Below are positions 22,708 to 29,050 of a stretch of DNA of 59,500 nt, piece by piece. Source of the DNA: Minisyncoccia bacterium (GTDB lineage Bacteria > Patescibacteriota > Minisyncoccia > Phycocordibacterales > Phycocordibacteraceae); contig JBAQEU010000035.1 of the NCBI GenBank assembly GCA_049286905.1, positions 1-59,500 of the forward strand. Direction: 5' to 3'. How positions within the stretch are numbered: position 1 is the first letter of the stretch; each line of letters opens with the position of its first letter. The position numbers and the translations under genes were made by a program. The notes under the pieces are model-generated. The model was not told where the DNA came from. It ran no database searches and saw only the letters and a list, made by a program, of their open reading frames with translations.

Positions 22708-24669
22708 ATGAACAAAAAAGGATGGGGATTTGATACGAAAGATATAGACAAGAAGGTACGGCCGCAGGATGACTTCTTCCACTACGCGAGCGGTGGGTGG
22801 ATGCAGAAGAACCCGATACCGAAAGAGGAAGCGCGCTGGGGCTCGTTTACCATGCTCCGCCACACGACCGACAAACAGCTGAATGTTCTGTTGAAAAAAG
22901 TCGTGGGGAAAAAGAGTGCGGCGAAAGGCAGTCCTGAACAAATGATTCGTGATTTGTACGCATCCGGAATGGACTTGCCGGCTCGTCGTGCACTCGGTGT
23001 CGCTCCCCTCGCCCCGCTCATGAAGCGCATCGAGAGCATCAAGTCGCCGCAAGACATCGTAACCACGGTCGCGCACCTAGAGCGCGTCGGCTCTGGCGGT
23101 ATCTGGGGCGCAGGTATTGACCAAGACATGAAAGACAGCGAGAAGTACATCATGTACCTCGGCCAGGGCGGGCTGGGGATGCCTGATCGCGACTACTATT
23201 TGAAGAACGACGACGAGATGAAGCGCGTGCGCGAGGCATATGAGAAGCACTTGGTGCGACTCCTCGAGCTAGCAGGGCGGAAAGCTACAGCAAAAGAAGA
23301 GGCCGCGCTCGTGCTCAAGATCGAGACCGCGATTGCGAAAGTCTCTATGACGAAAGAGGACCTGCGCGACGTGGACAAGACCTACCACAAGAAGTCGCTC
23401 GCACAGCTGACCAAGCTCACGCACACTATCGACTGGAAAAACTACTTCAAGATACTCGGCACTGAGCCGAAAAACGTCGTCGTGATGCAACCGAAGTTCT
23501 TCGAGGCGGCAGAAAAGATGCTCAAGACGTTTTCGATTGTCGAATGGCAGACGTATCTCCGCACCCATGTGATTGGCGACTTCGCGTCGTTCCTCACACC
23601 TGAGCTCGAGAAAGAAAACTTCGCATTCTACGCCACAGTGCTTACAGGAACTAAGGACATGAAGCCACTCTGGCGACGCATCCTCCGCGTCGTGAATGGC
23701 GGATTGAACGAGGTGTTTGGCGAGCTCTACGTGAAGGAATACTTCCCCGCCGCGGCGAAGCACAAGGTCGCCGTCGTGGTGGCTGATCTCTTCCGTGCGT
23801 ATGAAGCACGCATCAAGAACCTCGACTGGATGAGTCCTGCGACAAAGAAGAAAGCTATCGTGAAGCTGAAGCAGATGAATCGCAAGCTCGGCTACCCGGA
23901 CAAATGGAAGAGCTACAAGGGACTCGTCATAAAGGCCGACGACTACGTGGGCAACGTGCTCCGCGTGAGCGAGTTCGAACACAAGCGCGCGATGCGCCGC
24001 CTCAGCAAGCCTGTCGACCACAAGGAGTGGTTCATGAGCCCGCAGACCGTAAACGCGTACTGCAGTTTCGGCATGAACGACATCGTCTTCCCTGCCGCTA
24101 TCCTTCAGCACCCGTTCTTCGAGGTCTCGGCCGACGACGCATTCAACTATGGCGCGATAGGCTCGGTCATCGGTCATGAAATAACACACGGCTTCGACGA
24201 CCAGGGATGCAAGTTCGATGGTAAGGGCAACAGAAAGACGTGGTGGACACCTACCGACACAAAGCGCTTCACCGAGAAGTCGAAGAAAGTCGTAAAAGAG
24301 TTCAACGGCTACGAAGTCGATGGCGGCTTGAAGGTGAACGGCCAGCTCACACTCGGCGAAAACATCGCTGATCTCGGCGGGCTCTCTATCGCCTTTGACG
24401 CGTACCAGCTCCGTCTCAAGGAGACCGGCCGTAAAGACCTCGACGGCTTTACTCCCGAACAGCGATTCTTCTTGGGCTATGCCTGCACCGAGCGCGAGCA
24501 GGAGCGGCCCGAGTTCCGCAAGACGCAGGTGATGACCGACCCTCACTCACCGTCGAAGTTCCGGGTGAATGGCCCACTCTCAAACCTCCCCGAGTTCTAC
24601 GAGGCGTTCGGTGTGCAGAAAGGCGACAAGCTGTACCGCGCTCCCTCTGACCGCGCAAAGATTTGGTAA
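22708..24669 (+). CDS. M13-family zinc metallopeptidase (neprilysin/PepO-like)
   Basis: 653 aa with HEITHGFDDQG (HExxH), GENIADLGG (ExxxD) and a NAYC block. Confidence 0.93.
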   Translation: MNKKGWGFDTKDIDKKVRPQDDFFHYASGGWMQKNPIPKEEARWGSFTMLRHTTDKQLNVLLKKVVGKKSAAKGSPEQMIRDLYASGMDLPARRALGVAPLAPLMKRIESIKSPQDIVTTVAHLERVGSGGIWGAGIDQDMKDSEKYIMYLGQGGLGMPDRDYYLKNDDEMKRVREAYEKHLVRLLELAGRKATAKEEAALVLKIETAIAKVSMTKEDLRDVDKTYHKKSLAQLTKLTHTIDWKNYFKILGTEPKNVVVMQPKFFEAAEKMLKTFSIVEWQTYLRTHVIGDFASFLTPELEKENFAFYATVLTGTKDMKPLWRRILRVVNGGLNEVFGELYVKEYFPAAAKHKVAVVVADLFRAYEARIKNLDWMSPATKKKAIVKLKQMNRKLGYPDKWKSYKGLVIKADDYVGNVLRVSEFEHKRAMRRLSKPVDHKEWFMSPQTVNAYCSFGMNDIVFPAAILQHPFFEVSADDAFNYGAIGSVIGHEITHGFDDQGCKFDGKGNRKTWWTPTDTKRFTEKSKKVVKEFNGYEVDGGLKVNGQLTLGENIADLGGLSIAFDAYQLRLKETGRKDLDGFTPEQRFFLGYACTEREQERPEFRKTQVMTDPHSPSKFRVNGPLSNLPEFYEAFGVQKGDKLYRAPSDRAKIW

Positions 24670-24673
24670 GTCA

Positions 24674-24702
24674 AAATATCAGACATCCGATGTCTGATAT
24701 TT
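24674..24702. terminator. bidirectional hairpin AAATATCAGACATC-C-GATGTCTGATATTT between convergent genes
   Basis: Perfect 14-bp arms between the M13 peptidase (+) stop and the HD gene (-) stop. Confidence 0.6.
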
Positions 24703-24745
24703 GTCACTTAGCGGCGAAACCCCTAAGTAATTTCTGAGCTCAAAG

Positions 24746-25303
24746 TTACGCAAAGACTTCCTTTTCGCGTGCGTGCACTTGGGCGAGGCGCTTCGTGAGT
24801 CGGTGCTCAGGCAGACGCCTCTGAGCAATCTTGAGCGCTTCGCTGTGATACCAGACATACTCGCTGGACGGTTGTTTCCAACGAGCGAAAATCTCTGCAC
24901 CTTCTTTCTCAAAAGCTTCGAGCTTGCTCTCGATGTTGTCTATTTTGTCAGCCACCGCGATGAGTATCGCCTCGTCGTTCGCGTTCCCGAGATTCTCGAG
25001 ATACGCGACTTTTCGTTCTTTCCACTCGAGCCCTTTGGGTTCAGACACCGCCTCGACGAGTTCCGCGACGTGTTCGTTGAACGTCTGTGCAATCTCTTCA
25101 CGGGTCGTCGCAGTATCTTCGAGCGTATCGTGCAGGAGCGCCGCCGTGACGACGTCGTCGCTCGCGCCGTCTTCGGCGACAAGAAGCGCGACTGAGAAGA
25201 GGTGGGTGATGTACGGCAGAGGTTCTACCTCGATGCGCATCTGTCCGTGATGCTTCCTGGCGGCGAACTGCAGTGCCTTCTTTATCTGCGGGGTGTGGTT
25301 CAT
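24746..25303 (-). CDS. HD-domain protein, RelA/SpoT-type (p)ppGpp hydrolase-like (small alarmone hydrolase)
   Basis: 185 aa with AARKHHGQMR, PYITHLFSVA and AALLHDTLEDT (the HD motif). No synthetase domain. Confidence 0.8.
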   Translation of the reverse strand: MNHTPQIKKALQFAARKHHGQMRIEVEPLPYITHLFSVALLVAEDGASDDVVTAALLHDTLEDTATTREEIAQTFNEHVAELVEAVSEPKGLEWKERKVAYLENLGNANDEAILIAVADKIDNIESKLEAFEKEGAEIFARWKQPSSEYVWYHSEALKIAQRRLPEHRLTKRLAQVHAREKEVFA

Positions 25304-25336
25304 GAATAAGAGCGTATCACATTGTTCCGGGCGTAT

Positions 25337-25364
25337 AAAAAACTACCGCGAGGATTCCTCGCGG
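25337..25364 (-). terminator. intrinsic terminator CCGCGAGG-att-CCTCGCGG after paralog A
   Basis: 8-bp GC stem plus a T-run on the minus strand. Confidence 0.65.
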
Positions 25365-25369
25365 CGGTG

Positions 25370-25735
25370 CTACAAATATATCGTATAGCTGGCAATATAG
25401 CCGACGGTACTTGTTTGAAAGAAAAACCGTCCATTTGGGAACATTATCGGCAAGGCAATTCCATCCCTTCTGATATACACCGGCTCGATATCGAGATCCG
25501 ACGATGACATACAGAGCTTGGATTTGCTTATGTATATTCCAATCAGGGTTCCCGGAAGAAATTCGGCATATCCTTTTCCGTATCTGGTCGTAATCTCAAT
25601 AAGTTTTGAATCTTCTTTGAGTTCATCGCTCAGTTTCGTCACCATTGTTTCCCATGAGATGGTGAATCCCGGAACTGAATATTTATACTGGTATGCCAAC
25701 TCGGTTGGCAGGTCTACGACATTCAAAATTCCCAC
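25370..25735 (-). CDS. hypothetical protein, FPNGxFFF family, paralog A
   Basis: Start chosen at GTG 25735, 7 nt after SD GAGGAG (the track start 25750 is also GTG). It shares LIEIT..GY...IY...FPNG(R/S)FFF with paralog B. Confidence 0.6.
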   Translation of the reverse strand: MGILNVVDLPTELAYQYKYSVPGFTISWETMVTKLSDELKEDSKLIEITTRYGKGYAEFLPGTLIGIYISKSKLCMSSSDLDIEPVYIRRDGIALPIMFPNGRFFFQTSTVGYIASYTIYL

Positions 25736-25814
25736 AATGATGCTCCTCACACGTGCTCCCGGCTGACTGCGGAAACTTCAGTCTGCTGCAGTATTTCAAG
25801 CAATTCCAATGGGG

Positions 25815-25823
25815 ATTATACCA
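25815..25823 (-). promoter_or_regulatory. extended -10 TGGTATAAT for paralog A
   Basis: The minus strand reads GATAGTGGTATAATCCCC, upstream of the shared 18-nt leader motif. Confidence 0.5.
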
Positions 25824-25848
25824 CTATCCGACCACCCAGTCTATGTAT

Positions 25849-25882
25849 AAAAAAGCGGTCGCGAGGGGGAAATCCTCGCGAC
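25849..25882 (-). terminator. intrinsic terminator GTCGCGAGG-loop-CCTCGCGAC after paralog B
   Basis: 9-bp stem plus a T-run on the minus strand. The stem core CGCGAGG is shared with 25346..25364. Confidence 0.65.
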
Positions 25883-25889
25883 ATTGAAA

Positions 25890-26237
25890 CTACAGTGTCC
25901 GTATCGTGCAATTGTAGCCATTCGCACTGAAGAAGAAACTGCCGTTCGGGAATCTCGTGACAGAAAAGAGTTCCAGGTGCCAGATGTCAATCGGACTGAT
26001 TGCAAGCCGCGGTCCGAGCAGGTAGAGGTCTGTCCCTGCCAGGTAGATTTCATCCAGCTCACCTTCTTCAACTTGGTCATACCCGTCCGGACTCTTCTCC
26101 ATTGTTATCTCGAGGATTCTCGGAAGGATGTCGATGTCTTCGTTTATTTCTGCAACCATTTCTTCTATCAAGACCGTGGTGCAGGGCTGTTGGTACTGCG
26201 GCGAAGCGAACTCGCCTTTCCCTGATGAAAGGTGCAT
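25890..26237 (-). CDS. hypothetical acidic protein, FPNGxFFF family, paralog B
   Basis: 115 aa with ATG 6 nt after SD AAGGAGG. It is roughly 30% identical by eye to paralog A over the C-terminal ~80 aa. Confidence 0.6.
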   Translation of the reverse strand: MHLSSGKGEFASPQYQQPCTTVLIEEMVAEINEDIDILPRILEITMEKSPDGYDQVEEGELDEIYLAGTDLYLLGPRLAISPIDIWHLELFSVTRFPNGSFFFSANGYNCTIRTL

Positions 26238-26304
26238 AGCGGTCCTCCTTTTAGGAACTGCGTGTTTCCGATTGACTGCGGAAACTTCAGCCGACTCCGG
26301 ATAT

Positions 26305-26313
26305 AGTGTACCA
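26305..26313 (-). promoter_or_regulatory. extended -10 TGGTACACT for paralog B
   Basis: The minus strand reads GCAGTGGTACACTATATCC, upstream of the shared 18-nt leader motif. Confidence 0.4.
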
Positions 26314-26366
26314 CTGCATTTGGAAAAGAAACGCGCCCGCTGGGAAACTCCAGCGAGCGCAATGCC

Positions 26367-27032
26367 TTATTTGGATGGCACAAAACCATCTTCTGGTGTC
26401 AGAAGCGCGAGCGGGAGCCGTGACGCAACTTCAATCCAGTGTCCATTGACTCCACCCGAGAGGTGAATGAGAACTGAGCTGTTGTACCCCCGGCGAGGTG
26501 TGGACAACACACGGTCGCCTGTTGCAAGCGTATCGCCAACGAAAAGCGTACGCGGTTGGGAGACACGAGGAGTCCTCAGACGGTTCTCTCCATTCCCATA
26601 GCGTTCTCGATGTTCAACGAACCCATAGGGTCGGCGTTCATGTTCTGACAAAGGCCATCCGGGTGGCGCGTTTTTGTCTCGGGCGAAGACAAGATTCAAA
26701 CCTTCCTCTTGTCTGCCGACAATCTTCTCATGTGTCGCTCTGTCCATGTTTCCGGTAAACGCGGCACAATTGACGACAAATTCCCGTGGTTCAGGAATAT
26801 TGACCACACCGAAACGCCCTTCCAGAAACACTGTCGCAATCCGGACTGTAAGCGACAGCACCCCCGGCTTGAGATTGATCACAAGATGAAGGTCGTGATC
26901 TTTGAGTTTGTAGTCGGTAATTTCGAATGTTGGCGGTTTGTCGGTGAACCATGTTTGTTCCACCACATGCCACCCCCCTTGATCGAGAGCCGCGACCAGT
27001 CTCTCAAGTCTCTGTTGTGTGTTCATACTCAC
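26367..27032 (-). CDS. hypothetical protein (221 aa, orphan)
   Basis: SD GAGGAGAAG 5 nt before the ATG, with its own sigma-70-like promoter. No motif recognised. Confidence 0.6.
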   Translation of the reverse strand: MSMNTQQRLERLVAALDQGGWHVVEQTWFTDKPPTFEITDYKLKDHDLHLVINLKPGVLSLTVRIATVFLEGRFGVVNIPEPREFVVNCAAFTGNMDRATHEKIVGRQEEGLNLVFARDKNAPPGWPLSEHERRPYGFVEHRERYGNGENRLRTPRVSQPRTLFVGDTLATGDRVLSTPRRGYNSSVLIHLSGGVNGHWIEVASRLPLALLTPEDGFVPSK

Positions 27033-27079
27033 TTCTCCTCACAGACGTTAATGAAAATAACTTCTTGTACCCTCGAGGT

Positions 27080-27108
27080 ACTCTATGGTTTTTCTGTGTG
27101 TACGTCAA
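27080..27108 (-). promoter_or_regulatory. sigma-70-like promoter TTGACG-17 nt-TAGAGT for the 221-aa gene
   Basis: It starts directly after the ung stop. It is followed by the partial palindrome GTACCTCGAGGGTAC. Confidence 0.5.
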
Positions 27109-27777
27109 TTACAGCCAGTTTATGGGAGTTTCTCCGTGCGCGATGAGATAGTCATTCGTCTTACTGAAGTGTTTGCAACCGAAGAAGCCGGAGGCGGCAG
27201 AAAACGGCGACGGGTGCGGTGCTTCGAGCACGAGATGCTTGGTGCGGTCTATGTGAGCGCCTTTTGCTCTAGCATAGTTTCCCCACAACAGAAAGACGAG
27301 ATTCTCCCGTTCATTTGAAAGCCTGTGGATAACCTCGTCGGTGAACTGTTCCCACCCACGGTCCTGGTGCGAGCCAGCCGTGTGCGCACGAACGGTAAGC
27401 GTGGCGTTCAGAAGCAAGACGCCCTGCTCTGCCCACCGTGAGAGGTCACCATCGGTGTGCGTGAGCGGCTTCCCCAAGTCGCTCTCAATTTCTTTGAAGA
27501 TGTTTTGTAGAGATGGTGGTATTTTTGTGTGCTCGTCTACAGCAAATGCGAGACCGTTGGCCTGTCCGTCGCCGTGGTAGGGGTCCTGTCCGAGTATCAC
27601 CACCTTTACCTTGTCGAAAGGACACAGGTCGAAAGCGCGAAAGATGTTTTTCGGCGCAGGGTACACTGCGCCGTCTCGGTACTCTTTCTTAACGAATGAG
27701 GTGAGTTCTTTGAAATATTCTTTCTCAGATTCCCCCGAGAGGTGCTCTTTCCATGACGGTTCTATCTTCACGTTCAT
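27109..27777 (-). CDS. ung: uracil-DNA glycosylase, family 1
   Basis: 222 aa with the GQDPYHG water-activating motif and the HPSPFSA leucine-loop region. Confidence 0.95.
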   Translation of the reverse strand: MNVKIEPSWKEHLSGESEKEYFKELTSFVKKEYRDGAVYPAPKNIFRAFDLCPFDKVKVVILGQDPYHGDGQANGLAFAVDEHTKIPPSLQNIFKEIESDLGKPLTHTDGDLSRWAEQGVLLLNATLTVRAHTAGSHQDRGWEQFTDEVIHRLSNERENLVFLLWGNYARAKGAHIDRTKHLVLEAPHPSPFSAASGFFGCKHFSKTNDYLIAHGETPINWL

Positions 27778-28568
27778 TTCTTTTTGTTTTTATTATGAAG
27801 TGAAAGAAGGATCTTCCCGGCGCTCTCTCGGTACGTGCAGTACTCGCACGGGCCGCCGCCAAACGAAGTGCCGACTGCGGGTATCTCGTCGCTCATGAGC
27901 ATCTTCTTCAGACCCACGACCGCTGGTTCGACCCATTCGTCGCTTCCCGTATAGGGGATAAGTTTGATGTCGAACTCAAGCTTCCCATCAAATGCTTTTG
28001 CATCGGCTTTGCCGTTTACATAGACGAAATACACCGTCGGCGATACGGCGAAACCATTCTTACGGAAAAGCCACTGATAAATCTCGAGCTGGCGTTTGTA
28101 GGAGTCGTATAAATCGTCTTCGGTGCTCGGTCCGACGTTCTTGCTCGTCGCTTTGTAGTCAACAATGATGAGCTCCCCGGCAGGGTTCACCCATACGTCG
28201 TCGATGCCGCCTCGAACGAGAATATTGGTCGGCTCATGCAGATACGCGATGCCGCGACGGAGCGCATCGCGCCACTCCTCCATACGCTCGTCATTAAGCG
28301 GTATCGCGTCGAGACCATACGCTTCGACGAGTGGGTGCTTACTGCCTTTTGCGCGGTGGATGTCGAACTCACGCTTCAAGAGCTCGTCGACAGCGTTATT
28401 GAGAGTGAACGAGGGCATGGACGGACGCTTTACACCGAGCCGCATATCGAGGTAGGCGCACCGCGGACACTCGGTGAAGAGGTCGAGCTTGGAACGGCTC
28501 ACCTTGTAGGGCGCTTGTGAAGACGGATCAAATGGTCCGTAGCTCGCTTTATAGCTTTTCACTGCCAT
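27774..28568 (-). CDS. PD-(D/E)XK nuclease-fold protein with terminal Cys pairs (Cas4/RecB-family-like)
   Basis: 264 aa with GGIDDVW...LIIVDYKAT...QLEIYQW (D..D/ExK..Q.xxY). N-terminal CPRC and C-terminal CEYC. It overlaps ung by 4 nt. Confidence 0.7.
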   Translation of the reverse strand: MAVKSYKASYGPFDPSSQAPYKVSRSKLDLFTECPRCAYLDMRLGVKRPSMPSFTLNNAVDELLKREFDIHRAKGSKHPLVEAYGLDAIPLNDERMEEWRDALRRGIAYLHEPTNILVRGGIDDVWVNPAGELIIVDYKATSKNVGPSTEDDLYDSYKRQLEIYQWLFRKNGFAVSPTVYFVYVNGKADAKAFDGKLEFDIKLIPYTGSDEWVEPAVVGLKKMLMSDEIPAVGTSFGGGPCEYCTYRESAGKILLSLHNKNKKK

Positions 28569-28570
28569 AG

Positions 28571-29050
28571 CTAGTCGGTGGTCGTGAAGCGAGCGATAAC
28601 CGGTGCACCCGTTGCGAAGTCGACATAGACGCTGTCGGTCGCGAGATCAAAAGTGTTGTTGCCGTCATCGCGATAGAGCTCGATTGCATACGGCAGACCA
28701 GGCTCAGTCGCGCGCAAGAGCGGAATGGAGACATTACTTCTCGGGCCGTCGACGCGCACCGCCCCGAGCACGTTCCCAAGATCGTTCCCGTTTACCTCGC
28801 GTACCGCGACCCAGACTCCCGGGGGCGGCACCGTGACTGTTTCAACGACGACTTCCGAGCTGGCTTTCTGGTTCGTGACAGAAACTGCTCCGCTTTCAGG
28901 AACAGTCTGTTTGGTGTCGGAGACGGAAAGAGATGATGCTGGTGCGAAAGGCAGAAGCGAAGAATCGCTCTCGAAAAGCCACGCGCCCGTAAAAAGCACC
29001 CCGAGCATGAATCCCGAGACGAATGACCCCATGGAAAAGTTCTTCATCAT
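28571..29050 (-). CDS. membrane-anchored hypothetical protein
   Basis: 159 aa with an N-terminal TM (FVSGFMLGVLFTGAWLF) followed by a beta-rich domain. Confidence 0.55.
   Translation of the reverse strand: MMKNFSMGSFVSGFMLGVLFTGAWLFESDSSLLPFAPASSLSVSDTKQTVPESGAVSVTNQKASSEVVVETVTVPPPGVWVAVREVNGNDLGNVLGAVRVDGPRSNVSIPLLRATEPGLPYAIELYRDDGNNTFDLATDSVYVDFATGAPVIARFTTTD

What the first reader, a model, noticed from the sequence alone, without database searches (positions are those of the whole stretch)
25337..27108. AT-richer three-gene accessory cluster: a 221-aa orphan followed by two tandem paralog cassettes (FPNGxFFF family)
Three minus-strand genes sit between the HD hydrolase and ung. Each has its own promoter and two have their own terminator.

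The 115-aa and ~121-aa proteins are paralogs. They share MV..(L/I).E(D/E)....(L/I)(I/L)EIT...GY...G.L..IY...FPNG(R/S)FFF...GY. Their leaders share an identical 18-mer TGACTGCGGAAACTTCAG (25764..25781 and 26273..26290). Both have an extended -10 TGGTA(T/C)A(A/C)T, and their terminators share the CGCGAGG/CCTCGCG stem. The whole cassette has therefore been duplicated.

The upstream 221-aa protein matches nothing I recognise. It has a good TTGACG-17-TAGAGT promoter followed by a partial palindrome GTACCTCGAGGGTAC. Tandem arrays of small acidic paralogs next to an unknown larger protein recall immunity-gene arrays or other conflict systems. This is pure inference: no toxin, nuclease or ATPase motif is visible.
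Basis: partly seen in the sequence, partly recalled or inferred. Interest (0 to 1): 0.6.

Follow-up and report, generated by a model that had tools for sequence, protein, structure and literature searches.

The report
Orphan gene cassettes between ung and HD
In a tiny uncultured (CPR/Paceibacterota) bacterium, the gap between two conserved genes is a changeable slot that here holds three separately switched genes of unknown function, two of them fast-diverging copies of a small protein found only in this genus; this is a tidy example of a known kind of variable locus, not a recognisable new system.

Summary
Three minus-strand genes lie at 25337-27108. Each has a promoter-like site and a terminator. 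The two small proteins are paralogues (31% identity, E 9e-11) and share an identical 18-nt leader motif.

The three genes are not one system. In the 222 same-genus genomes searched, the junction between ung and a SpoT-type HD hydrolase gene is a variable slot:
- 11 genomes have it empty.
- 2 have short non-coding filler.
- 14 have different cargo: the small family, a PurO-like gene, a weak toxin-antitoxin-like pair, a membrane protein, and others.

The small family (about 105-131 aa) was found almost only in this genus. It has no Pfam, PDB or phage sequence relative, is under purifying selection (omega about 0.15), and is probably the ancestral occupant of the slot.

The 221-aa gene sits here only in this genome. 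Its homologues elsewhere lie in unrelated contexts. Its C-terminal ~85 aa is a small barrel module found across Patescibacteria and fused to several different partners.

Compared with a metagenome relative, the promoters, leaders and terminators are 83-97% identical, against a neutral baseline of 54%. The second cassette's protein is only 19% identical, which suggests allele replacement between conserved flanks.

Function is unknown. A non-enzymatic binding or inhibitor role is inference only. Interest is modest.

The parts
27109..27777 (-). ung (uracil-DNA glycosylase), the conserved upstream border of the variable slot
   Evidence: NCBIfam NF003589 E 1.5e-97. It is adjacent to the HD gene in the same-genus genomes examined.
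27080..27108 (-). promoter-like site TTGACG-17-TAGAGT for the 221-aa gene, starting right after the ung stop codon
   Evidence: consensus match only
27067..27081 (.). palindrome GTACCTCGAGGGTAC just downstream of the -10
   Evidence: function not tested
26367..27032 (-). 221-aa gene. It has a lineage-specific N-terminal alpha/beta domain (aa 1 to about 120) and a conserved C-terminal module (aa about 125-215, nt 26388-26660).
   Evidence: No Pfam, NCBIfam, PADLOC or PHROG hit. A profile search finds 82 relatives; every source name given is a Patescibacteria lineage. AF2 pLDDT 84. No significant PDB fold match, only local SH3/KOW-like barrel hits.
26332..26361 (-). terminator-like hairpin (12-bp stem plus T-run) after the 221-aa gene
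26305..26313 (-). extended -10 TGGTACACT of cassette 1
   Evidence: Read; conserved in L008.
26273..26290 (-). leader 18-mer CTGAAGTTTCCGCAGTCA of cassette 1. It overlaps a possible hairpin GTTTCCG-N8-CGGAAAC at 26264-26285.
25890..26237 (-). cassette 1 gene, 115 aa, member of the small family (motifs SWE/IEEM, IEIT, G.L, I.P, FPNGxFFF, Y..TI)
   Evidence: AF2 pLDDT 77.5. Omega 0.15 against L008.
25858..25882 (-). terminator-like hairpin of cassette 1
   Evidence: 93% identical in L008
25815..25843 (-). promoter of cassette 2, TAGACT-17-TATAAT with TG (extended -10 TGGTATAAT)
   Evidence: Promoter plus leader is 53/57 identical in L008.
25764..25781 (-). leader 18-mer of cassette 2, identical to that of cassette 1
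25370..25735 (-). cassette 2 gene, 121 aa from GTG 25735 (126 aa if read from GTG 25750), paralogue of cassette 1
   Evidence: (P0087 aligns from the second GTG)
25345..25365 (-). terminator-like hairpin of cassette 2
   Evidence: 36/37 identical in L008
24746..25303 (-). HD_4 / SpoT-type hydrolase-domain gene (185 aa), the conserved downstream border of the slot
   Evidence: Pfam PF13328 E 3.5e-18. TIGR00691 N-terminal part E 7.5e-26. Orthologues (E <= 1e-50, at least 50% identity) in 55 other same-genus genomes.

Best explanation
The stretch is the occupied state of a variable slot between ung and a SpoT-type HD hydrolase gene, seen across the genus. It holds three independent promoter-gene-terminator units, not one system.

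(1) The two small genes are tandem paralogues of an alpha/beta protein family of about 105-131 aa, found almost only in this genus. That family is probably the ancestral occupant of the slot. It was lost in one sub-clade, replaced in others, and duplicated in the lineage of this genome.

(2) The 221-aa gene is an unrelated addition found at this site only in this genome. It joins a lineage-specific N-domain to a small beta-barrel module of about 85 aa that occurs widely in Patescibacteria.

Shown: synteny, turnover of the slot, purifying selection on cassette 1, and regulatory shells far more conserved than neutral sites.

Inferred, with low confidence (about 0.3): the small proteins are non-enzymatic cytoplasmic binding or inhibitor-type proteins. 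Their conserved positions are mostly hydrophobic or turn residues, with no conserved His, Cys, Ser or Lys set. Their sequence is diversified by duplication and by recombination in the conserved promoter-leader and terminator flanks. Both copies are controlled through the same leader element.
For: Genes and paralogy.

Slot structure. Of 27 same-genus genomes where ung and HD were both located, 11 have 2-25 nt between them. That spacer carries only HD's -10 (GCGTATACT, then about 7 nt to the ATG). Two have 97 or 231 nt without an ORF. Fourteen hold 480-1800 bp of different cargo.

Family at the slot. A family member sits there in G000 (two copies), G137, G131, G170, G072 (HMM E 2e-5), G050 and G148, and in metagenome contig L008 (two copies).

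Turnover. The ung+HD tree needs at least 6 state changes in 22 genomes, and family-occupied genomes fall on both sides of the root split.

Restriction. The family was not found in 400 order-level genomes outside the genus, apart from one weak hit that is probably spurious. There are only about 8 short relatives among 1.84 billion representatives.

Selection. Cassette 1 against L008 gives dN 0.25, dS 1.6, omega 0.15; HD gives omega 0.16.

Regulatory shells. They are 83-97% identical, against 54% at HD four-fold sites. The cassette-2 proteins are 19% identical.

The 221-aa gene. Homologues lie in other contexts. Its C-module occurs standalone and fused to several partners, including MOSC. It is unrelated to the small family (hhalign probability 0.1).
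Against: - No experiment or homology links the small family to any function. The 'binding protein' reading rests on the absence of catalytic-looking conservation and on a model built from 4 sequences.
- 'Ancestral occupant' rests on a midpoint-rooted tree with several weak nodes. Independent gains are not excluded.
- G148's membership is by eye only: it shares a TIYP..VDCP tail with G050, and the HMM missed it.
- 'Allele replacement' rests on one pairwise comparison with a 2.2-kb contig. Very fast divergence of the coding region under conserved flanks is an alternative.
- The leader hairpin is not thermodynamically supported (z-scores -1.9 to +0.9).
- In 4 further loci ung was not within 1.5 kb of HD, and these were not examined.
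Confidence: 0.6

Rival explanations
1. Conflict locus. The small paralogues are immunity-, antitoxin- or anti-phage-type binders (an orphan immunity array) kept diverse by an arms race.
For: Tandem duplication with 31% identity. An allele with 19% identity sits between 93-97% identical flanks. The slot also holds a weak ParD/YafQ-like pair in G079. The genes are AT-richer than the genome. The best fold match is an uncharacterised phage protein, TM 0.64, E 1.3e-3.
Against: No toxin, nuclease, ATPase or PADLOC model lies beside the cassettes. Omega is 0.15, the same as the neighbouring housekeeping-type gene, so there is no overall signal of positive selection. No sequence relatives were found in phage records or IMG/VR. 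The family sits at one fixed chromosomal position and looks vertically inherited.
Confidence: 0.25
2. Functional partner of a neighbour. The small protein modulates Ung (a Ugi/SAUGI/p56-like inhibitor) or the SpoT-type HD hydrolase, which would explain its fixed position between them.
For: The family sits between ung and HD, on the same strand, in each of the 8 genomes or contigs where I placed it. The 115-aa copy is acidic, pI 4.2. From my own knowledge, its beta-alpha-beta-meander order resembles that of small UDG inhibitors; this was not tested.
Against: Family pI ranges from 4.2 to 10.0, unlike DNA mimics. No UDG-inhibitor chain appears among the top 50 Foldseek PDB matches. Eleven related genomes keep ung and HD directly adjacent without the family. 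Each cassette has its own promoter and terminator rather than being coupled to a neighbour.
Confidence: 0.1
3. Small ligand carrier. The family is a minimal ChuX/HutX-like (heme or tetrapyrrole) or similar ligand-binding protein.
For: The top Foldseek PDB matches are AGR_C_4470, HutX and ChuX (TM 0.43-0.52, E 0.04-0.4), plus YojF.
Against: The matches are not significant and cover proteins about 50 aa longer. No His or Tyr ligand position is conserved across the 15-member alignment apart from the C-terminal Y..TI. No heme-uptake genes lie nearby.
Confidence: 0.05

Closest known systems
Chromosomal hotspots of gene turnover between conserved core genes (Oliveira et al. 2017, PMC5635113)
   Same: Two conserved flanking genes (ung, HD). 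Content differs among close relatives, from empty to 1.8 kb. There were at least 6 state changes in 22 genomes, and the cargo is heterogeneous.
   Different: The genome is only about 0.7 Mb (CPR). No integrase, tRNA or other mobile-element mark was seen in the ORFs and domain scans of the stretch. One cargo family seems vertically inherited at the site rather than repeatedly imported.
Phage 'morons': autonomous promoter-gene-terminator units (Cumby et al. 2012, PMC3594210)
   Same: Each gene carries its own promoter-like site and terminator-like hairpin, is inserted between two other genes, and the small genes have lower GC than the surroundings.
   Different: It is not in a prophage. No phage genes are nearby, and there is no sequence relative in phage collections.
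Orphan immunity-gene arrays of polymorphic toxin systems
   Same: Tandem, strongly diverged small paralogues; cytoplasmic; no enzymatic motif.
   Different: No toxin gene or toxin domain lies nearby. No match to known immunity families in Pfam. There are only two copies. Purifying selection is no different from the neighbouring gene.
ChuX/HutX/AGR_C_4470 fold and an uncharacterised Siphoviridae protein (A0A8S5PSQ6)
   Same: Best structural neighbours of the AF2 model: TM 0.64 to the phage protein and about 0.5 to the ChuX group.
   Different: There is no sequence similarity. The scores are not significant for the PDB set. The phage protein itself has no known function.

Membership tests
Variable hotspot between core genes | Same two conserved genes flank the site in related genomes | tested here: met
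   ung and HD are both found within the locus in 25 of 29 other genus loci, plus G050.
Variable hotspot between core genes | Content differs between close relatives, with repeated gain or loss | tested here: met
   11 empty, 2 short non-coding, 14 with different cargo. At least 6 changes on a 22-genome tree.
Variable hotspot between core genes | Marks of mobile elements (integrase, tRNA, flanking repeats) | tested here: not met
   No integrase-like domain in the ORFs scanned. No flanking direct repeats. tRNA genes were not scanned for.
Moron-like autonomous transcription unit | Own promoter and own terminator around a single gene | tested here: met
   By sequence pattern only.
Moron-like autonomous transcription unit | Located within a phage or prophage genome | tested here: not met
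   The neighbours are ung, a Cas4-like nuclease, an HD hydrolase and an M13 peptidase. No phage relatives.
Polymorphic-toxin immunity array | Adjacent toxin gene with a recognisable toxin domain | tested here: not met
   Pfam and PADLOC scans of the neighbours find none.
Polymorphic-toxin immunity array | Membership of a described immunity family (SUKH, Imm, etc.) | tested here: not met
   No Pfam or NCBIfam hit at E <= 1 other than noise.
Type II toxin-antitoxin pair | Two different, co-transcribed small genes (toxin plus antitoxin) | tested here: not met
   The two small genes are paralogues of each other and are separated by a terminator and a promoter.
UDG inhibitors (Ugi, SAUGI, p56) | Strongly acidic DNA-mimic surface conserved in the family | tested here: not met
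   pI ranges from 4.2 to 10.0 across members.
UDG inhibitors (Ugi, SAUGI, p56) | Binding to, and inhibition of, Ung | not testable with these tools
   No complex prediction or assay is available here.
ChuX/HutX heme-binding proteins | Significant fold match and conserved heme-contact residues | tested here: not met
   Foldseek E 0.04-0.4, TM 0.43-0.52. No conserved His in the 15-sequence alignment.
Integron gene cassettes | attC recombination sites and an intI integrase; cassettes usually lack promoters | tested here: not met
   No integrase was seen in the ORFs and domain scans of the stretch. Each cassette has its own promoter. The only shared repeat is the leader motif.

The most novel reading that the evidence does not exclude
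The conserved promoter-leader and terminator sequences act as fixed 'shells' between which divergent alleles of the small gene are swapped by homologous recombination within the population. This would give these tiny-genome bacteria a cassette-exchange locus for a fast-diversifying binding or immunity protein, co-regulated through a family-specific leader element. It would work without any integrase or other mobile-element machinery.
Probability: 0.15. Interest if true: 0.6.

Novelty: new member of a known kind. Interest (0 to 1): 0.33.

Why it matters
CPR bacteria have very small genomes with many unannotated genes, and little is known about where and how they vary.

This locus gives a clean, well-bounded example. 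It is one slot between two conserved genes that can be empty, hold a lineage-specific fast-evolving gene (single or duplicated), or hold unrelated cargo.

It also defines two protein families without any annotation:
- a small alpha/beta family found almost only in this genus;
- a highly conserved module of about 85 aa, found across Patescibacteria and fused to several partners.

The second family, being 60-75% identical across distant CPR lineages, may be the better target for structural or biochemical work.

None of this overturns current understanding.

Tried and rejected
- Family libraries (Pfam, NCBIfam, PADLOC, PHROGs) on all three proteins gave nothing usable.
- Rfam on 24500-28000 at E <= 1 gave nothing.
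- Leader 18-mer with up to 2 mismatches in 222 genus genomes: hits were at the level of the reversed-pattern control. The two I read lay inside coding sequence, so I rejected them as chance.
- The family profile hit many giant proteins (1000-5800 aa). The one repeat protein I read closely (P0116) has MBG-type adhesin repeats matched at motif level, so I rejected these hits as spurious.
- The search for related loci for the small family in metagenome contigs (twice), genome contigs and viral contigs found no confirmed relative.
- tblastn against phage records found no match for the 115-aa or the 221-aa protein. The C-module is also absent from IMG/VR.
- PDB sequence searches with both family profiles gave only noise.
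- Foldseek PDB searches for both models gave no hit at E <= 0.001.
- I suspected the C-module was a divergent MOSC domain. This is rejected: in P0042 the module (aa 21-102) and the MOSC domain (aa 160-275) are separate.
- The small family is not related to the 221-aa N-domain: hhalign probability 0.1.
- Neighbourhoods of the standalone C-module are not conserved.
- RNA folding of the four leaders is no better than shuffles.
Full report
**1. What is there**

The window is contig C35 of a 730-kb, 47-contig, 99%-complete genome. Database names of the closest proteins place it in Candidatus Paceibacterota (Patescibacteria/CPR).

Three minus-strand ORFs lie between ung and an HD-domain gene:
- 26367-27032, 221 aa.
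- 25890-26237, 115 aa.
- 25370-25750, 126 aa from the first GTG.

ung is at 27109-27777 (NF003589, E 1.5e-97). The HD gene is at 24746-25303. It matches PF13328 HD_4 at E 3.5e-18 and the N-terminal hydrolase part of TIGR00691 at E 7.5e-26.

The two small proteins are paralogues: 31% identity, E 9e-11.

A 30-nt leader segment is repeated at 87% identity, with the 18-mer CTGAAGTTTCCGCAGTCA identical. That 18-mer occurs nowhere else in the genome.

Promoter-like sites and terminator-like hairpins are present for all three genes. The shared terminator stem CGCGAGG/CCTCGCG also occurs at three other places in the genome.

GC drops to 0.45-0.50 over the two small genes but not over most of the 221-aa gene.

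**2. The small family**

No Pfam, NCBIfam, PADLOC or PHROG model matches.

A word-indexed search of 5.8 billion proteins found one relative, P0012. A full HMMER scan of 1.84 billion representatives with a 4-sequence profile found about eight short relatives. It also hit many giant proteins. The one repeat protein I read closely (P0116) has MBG-type adhesin repeats, so I take these hits as motif-level noise.

A profile search of all 222 genomes of the genus found members in G137, G131 and G170, and weakly in G050. Reading the loci added G072 (HMM E 2e-5) and, by eye, G148. A sample of 400 genomes of the order outside the genus gave nothing credible.

The 15 sequences align colinearly. The conserved positions are P-G, W, I-E, G-x-L, I-E-P, F-x-N-G-x-x-F-F and Y-x-T-I. 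These are mostly hydrophobic or turn residues, with no conserved His, Cys, Ser or Lys set.

Family pI ranges from 4.2 to 10.0.

AlphaFold2 on a 4-sequence alignment gives pLDDT 77.5 and pTM 0.70: a disordered N-terminus, then beta-alpha followed by a beta meander.

Foldseek finds no significant PDB match. The best hits are ChuX, HutX and AGR_C_4470 (TM 0.43-0.52, E at least 0.04) and YojF. In BFVD the best hit is an uncharacterised Siphoviridae protein (TM 0.64/0.59, E 1.3e-3). Neither tells us the function.

**3. The locus is a variable slot**

Close orthologues of the HD gene (E <= 1e-50, at least 50% identity) occur in 55 other genomes of the genus.

In the 30 best loci, ung lies within 1.5 kb upstream of HD in 25. 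Adding the window and G050 gives 27 genomes, which fall into three groups:
- 11 have 2-25 nt between the ung stop and the HD start. That spacer holds just a -10 box (GCGTATACT) about 7 nt before the ATG, which suggests a leaderless HD transcript.
- 2 have 97 or 231 nt without an ORF.
- 14 have 480-1800 bp of cargo.

The cargo in those 14 is:
- The small family in 7 genomes, twice in the window.
- A PurO-like IMP cyclohydrolase in G008 (PF07826, E 2.6e-36) and G140 (E 2.5e-4).
- A pair weakly resembling ParD/YafQ in G079, both below the Pfam cut-offs.
- A 273-aa membrane protein in G242.
- A very acidic 135-aa protein in G060.
- Other orphans in G077 and G081.

A maximum-likelihood tree of Ung+HD for 22 genomes needs at least 6 changes of state. 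Family-occupied genomes lie on both sides of the midpoint root, while empty sites cluster in one sub-clade. The simplest reading is that the family is the old occupant, later lost or replaced. The root and several nodes are weak.

**4. The 221-aa gene is not a partner of the paralogues**

Its homologues occur in 4 of 63 sampled genus genomes. In G097 and G042 they lie between unrelated genes, with no family member nearby. In G050 the homologue is about 90 kb from the ung-HD slot, which holds a family member.

In the metagenome relative L008, the same two cassettes follow a PurO-like gene instead of the 221-aa gene.

A profile search gives 82 relatives; every source name given is a Patescibacteria lineage. 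About a dozen share the whole length. The rest share only the C-terminal ~85 aa (YGFxEH..YG.G.N.LRT..QP.AL..GD.LATGD.VLS.PR.G.N.SVLIHLTGG..G.W..V..R.P.ALLT.ED).

That module occurs in three forms:
- As a standalone protein of 105-128 aa that is 60-75% identical across Parcubacteria and Moranbacteria.
- Fused to at least four different partners, including a MOSC domain in P0042.
- Twice within P0010.

AlphaFold2 with 80 sequences gives pLDDT 84, above 90 in the module. Foldseek finds only local resemblance to small SH3/KOW/Tudor-type barrels, such as the eIF5A N-domain.

Neighbourhoods of the standalone form are not conserved. The module is unrelated to the small family.

**5. Conserved shells, divergent cargo**

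I compared the window with L008:

| Segment | Result |
|---|---|
| HD gene | dN 0.16, dS 1.03, omega 0.16 |
| HD four-fold sites (neutral baseline) | 54% identical |
| Cassette 1 gene | dN 0.25, dS about 1.6, omega 0.15 |
| Cassette-1 extended -10 to start codon | 83% identical |
| Cassette-2 promoter plus leader | 53/57 identical |
| Terminators | 93% and 97% identical |
| Cassette-2 proteins | 19% identical (pairwise E 0.035, colinear) |

Cassette 1 is therefore a real gene under purifying selection, not visibly under positive selection.

The non-coding elements are under strong constraint or were recently homogenised. Cassette 2 looks like an allele replaced between conserved flanks. This rests on a single comparison.

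L008's cassette 1 has lost the FPNGxFFF end through a deletion.

**6. The leader element**

A hairpin GUUUCCR-N8-10-YGGRARC can be drawn in all four leaders. It shows one compensatory change and two G-U changes (my reading). However, it is not always the minimum-energy fold, and the leaders fold no better than shuffles.

Whether this is an RNA element or a DNA operator is open.

**7. Verdict**

This is a real, well-bounded accessory locus of a known general kind: a variable slot between conserved genes, filled by self-contained expression units. It carries two unannotated protein families.

The three genes are not a system.

The function of the small family is unknown. My best guess, at about 0.3, is a non-enzymatic binding or inhibitor-type protein.

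The conflict reading stays possible but has no direct support. A role as an Ung or HD partner is unlikely, given the pI spread and the many genomes that lack the family.

Noticed in passing
L029, L034, L035, L037, L038, L041 (same-genus loci); window 25304-25330: Where the slot is empty, the whole ung-HD spacer is about 23 nt and holds GCGTATACT about 7 nt before the HD ATG. The HD gene therefore seems to be transcribed as a leaderless mRNA from a -10-only promoter.
   Followed up: partly
L048 (G008), L036 (G140), L008 2-454: An archaeal-type PurO-like IMP cyclohydrolase gene (PF07826) is an alternative cargo of the same slot in three relatives.
   Followed up: partly
L042 (G079), gap positions 51-522: A 72-aa and an 83-aa gene, 1 nt apart, weakly resemble a ParD-type antitoxin and a YafQ/RelE-type toxin. 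Both are below the Pfam cut-offs. They occupy the slot in one genome.
   Followed up: partly
L023 4825-5217 (G137); L026 7087-7353 (G050): Some relatives carry a short gene between the Cas4-like nuclease and ung. By eye it looks like an MGMT-type DNA-binding domain; I did not scan it. The window lacks it, so the upstream operon also varies.
   Followed up: no
L008 583-882: The cassette-1 orthologue in the metagenome relative ends early (99 aa). A deletion removes the family's most conserved motif, so it is possibly a decaying copy.
   Followed up: partly
P0010 (203 aa, JGI metagenome protein): It carries the conserved C-module of the 221-aa family twice in tandem.
   Followed up: no
G000 contigs C6 10678-10699, C32 7377-7394, C40 1677-1694: The terminator stem CGCGAGG..CCTCGCG recurs at three other places in the genome. 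This suggests a preferred terminator sequence in this organism.
   Followed up: no
window 27774-28568 and 28571-29050: Upstream of ung lie a Cas4-like PD-(D/E)XK nuclease (PF12705, E 1.7e-12) and a DUF7282 protein. Orthologous ORFs lie in the same order upstream of ung in G137, G050 and (nuclease only) G131.
   Followed up: partly
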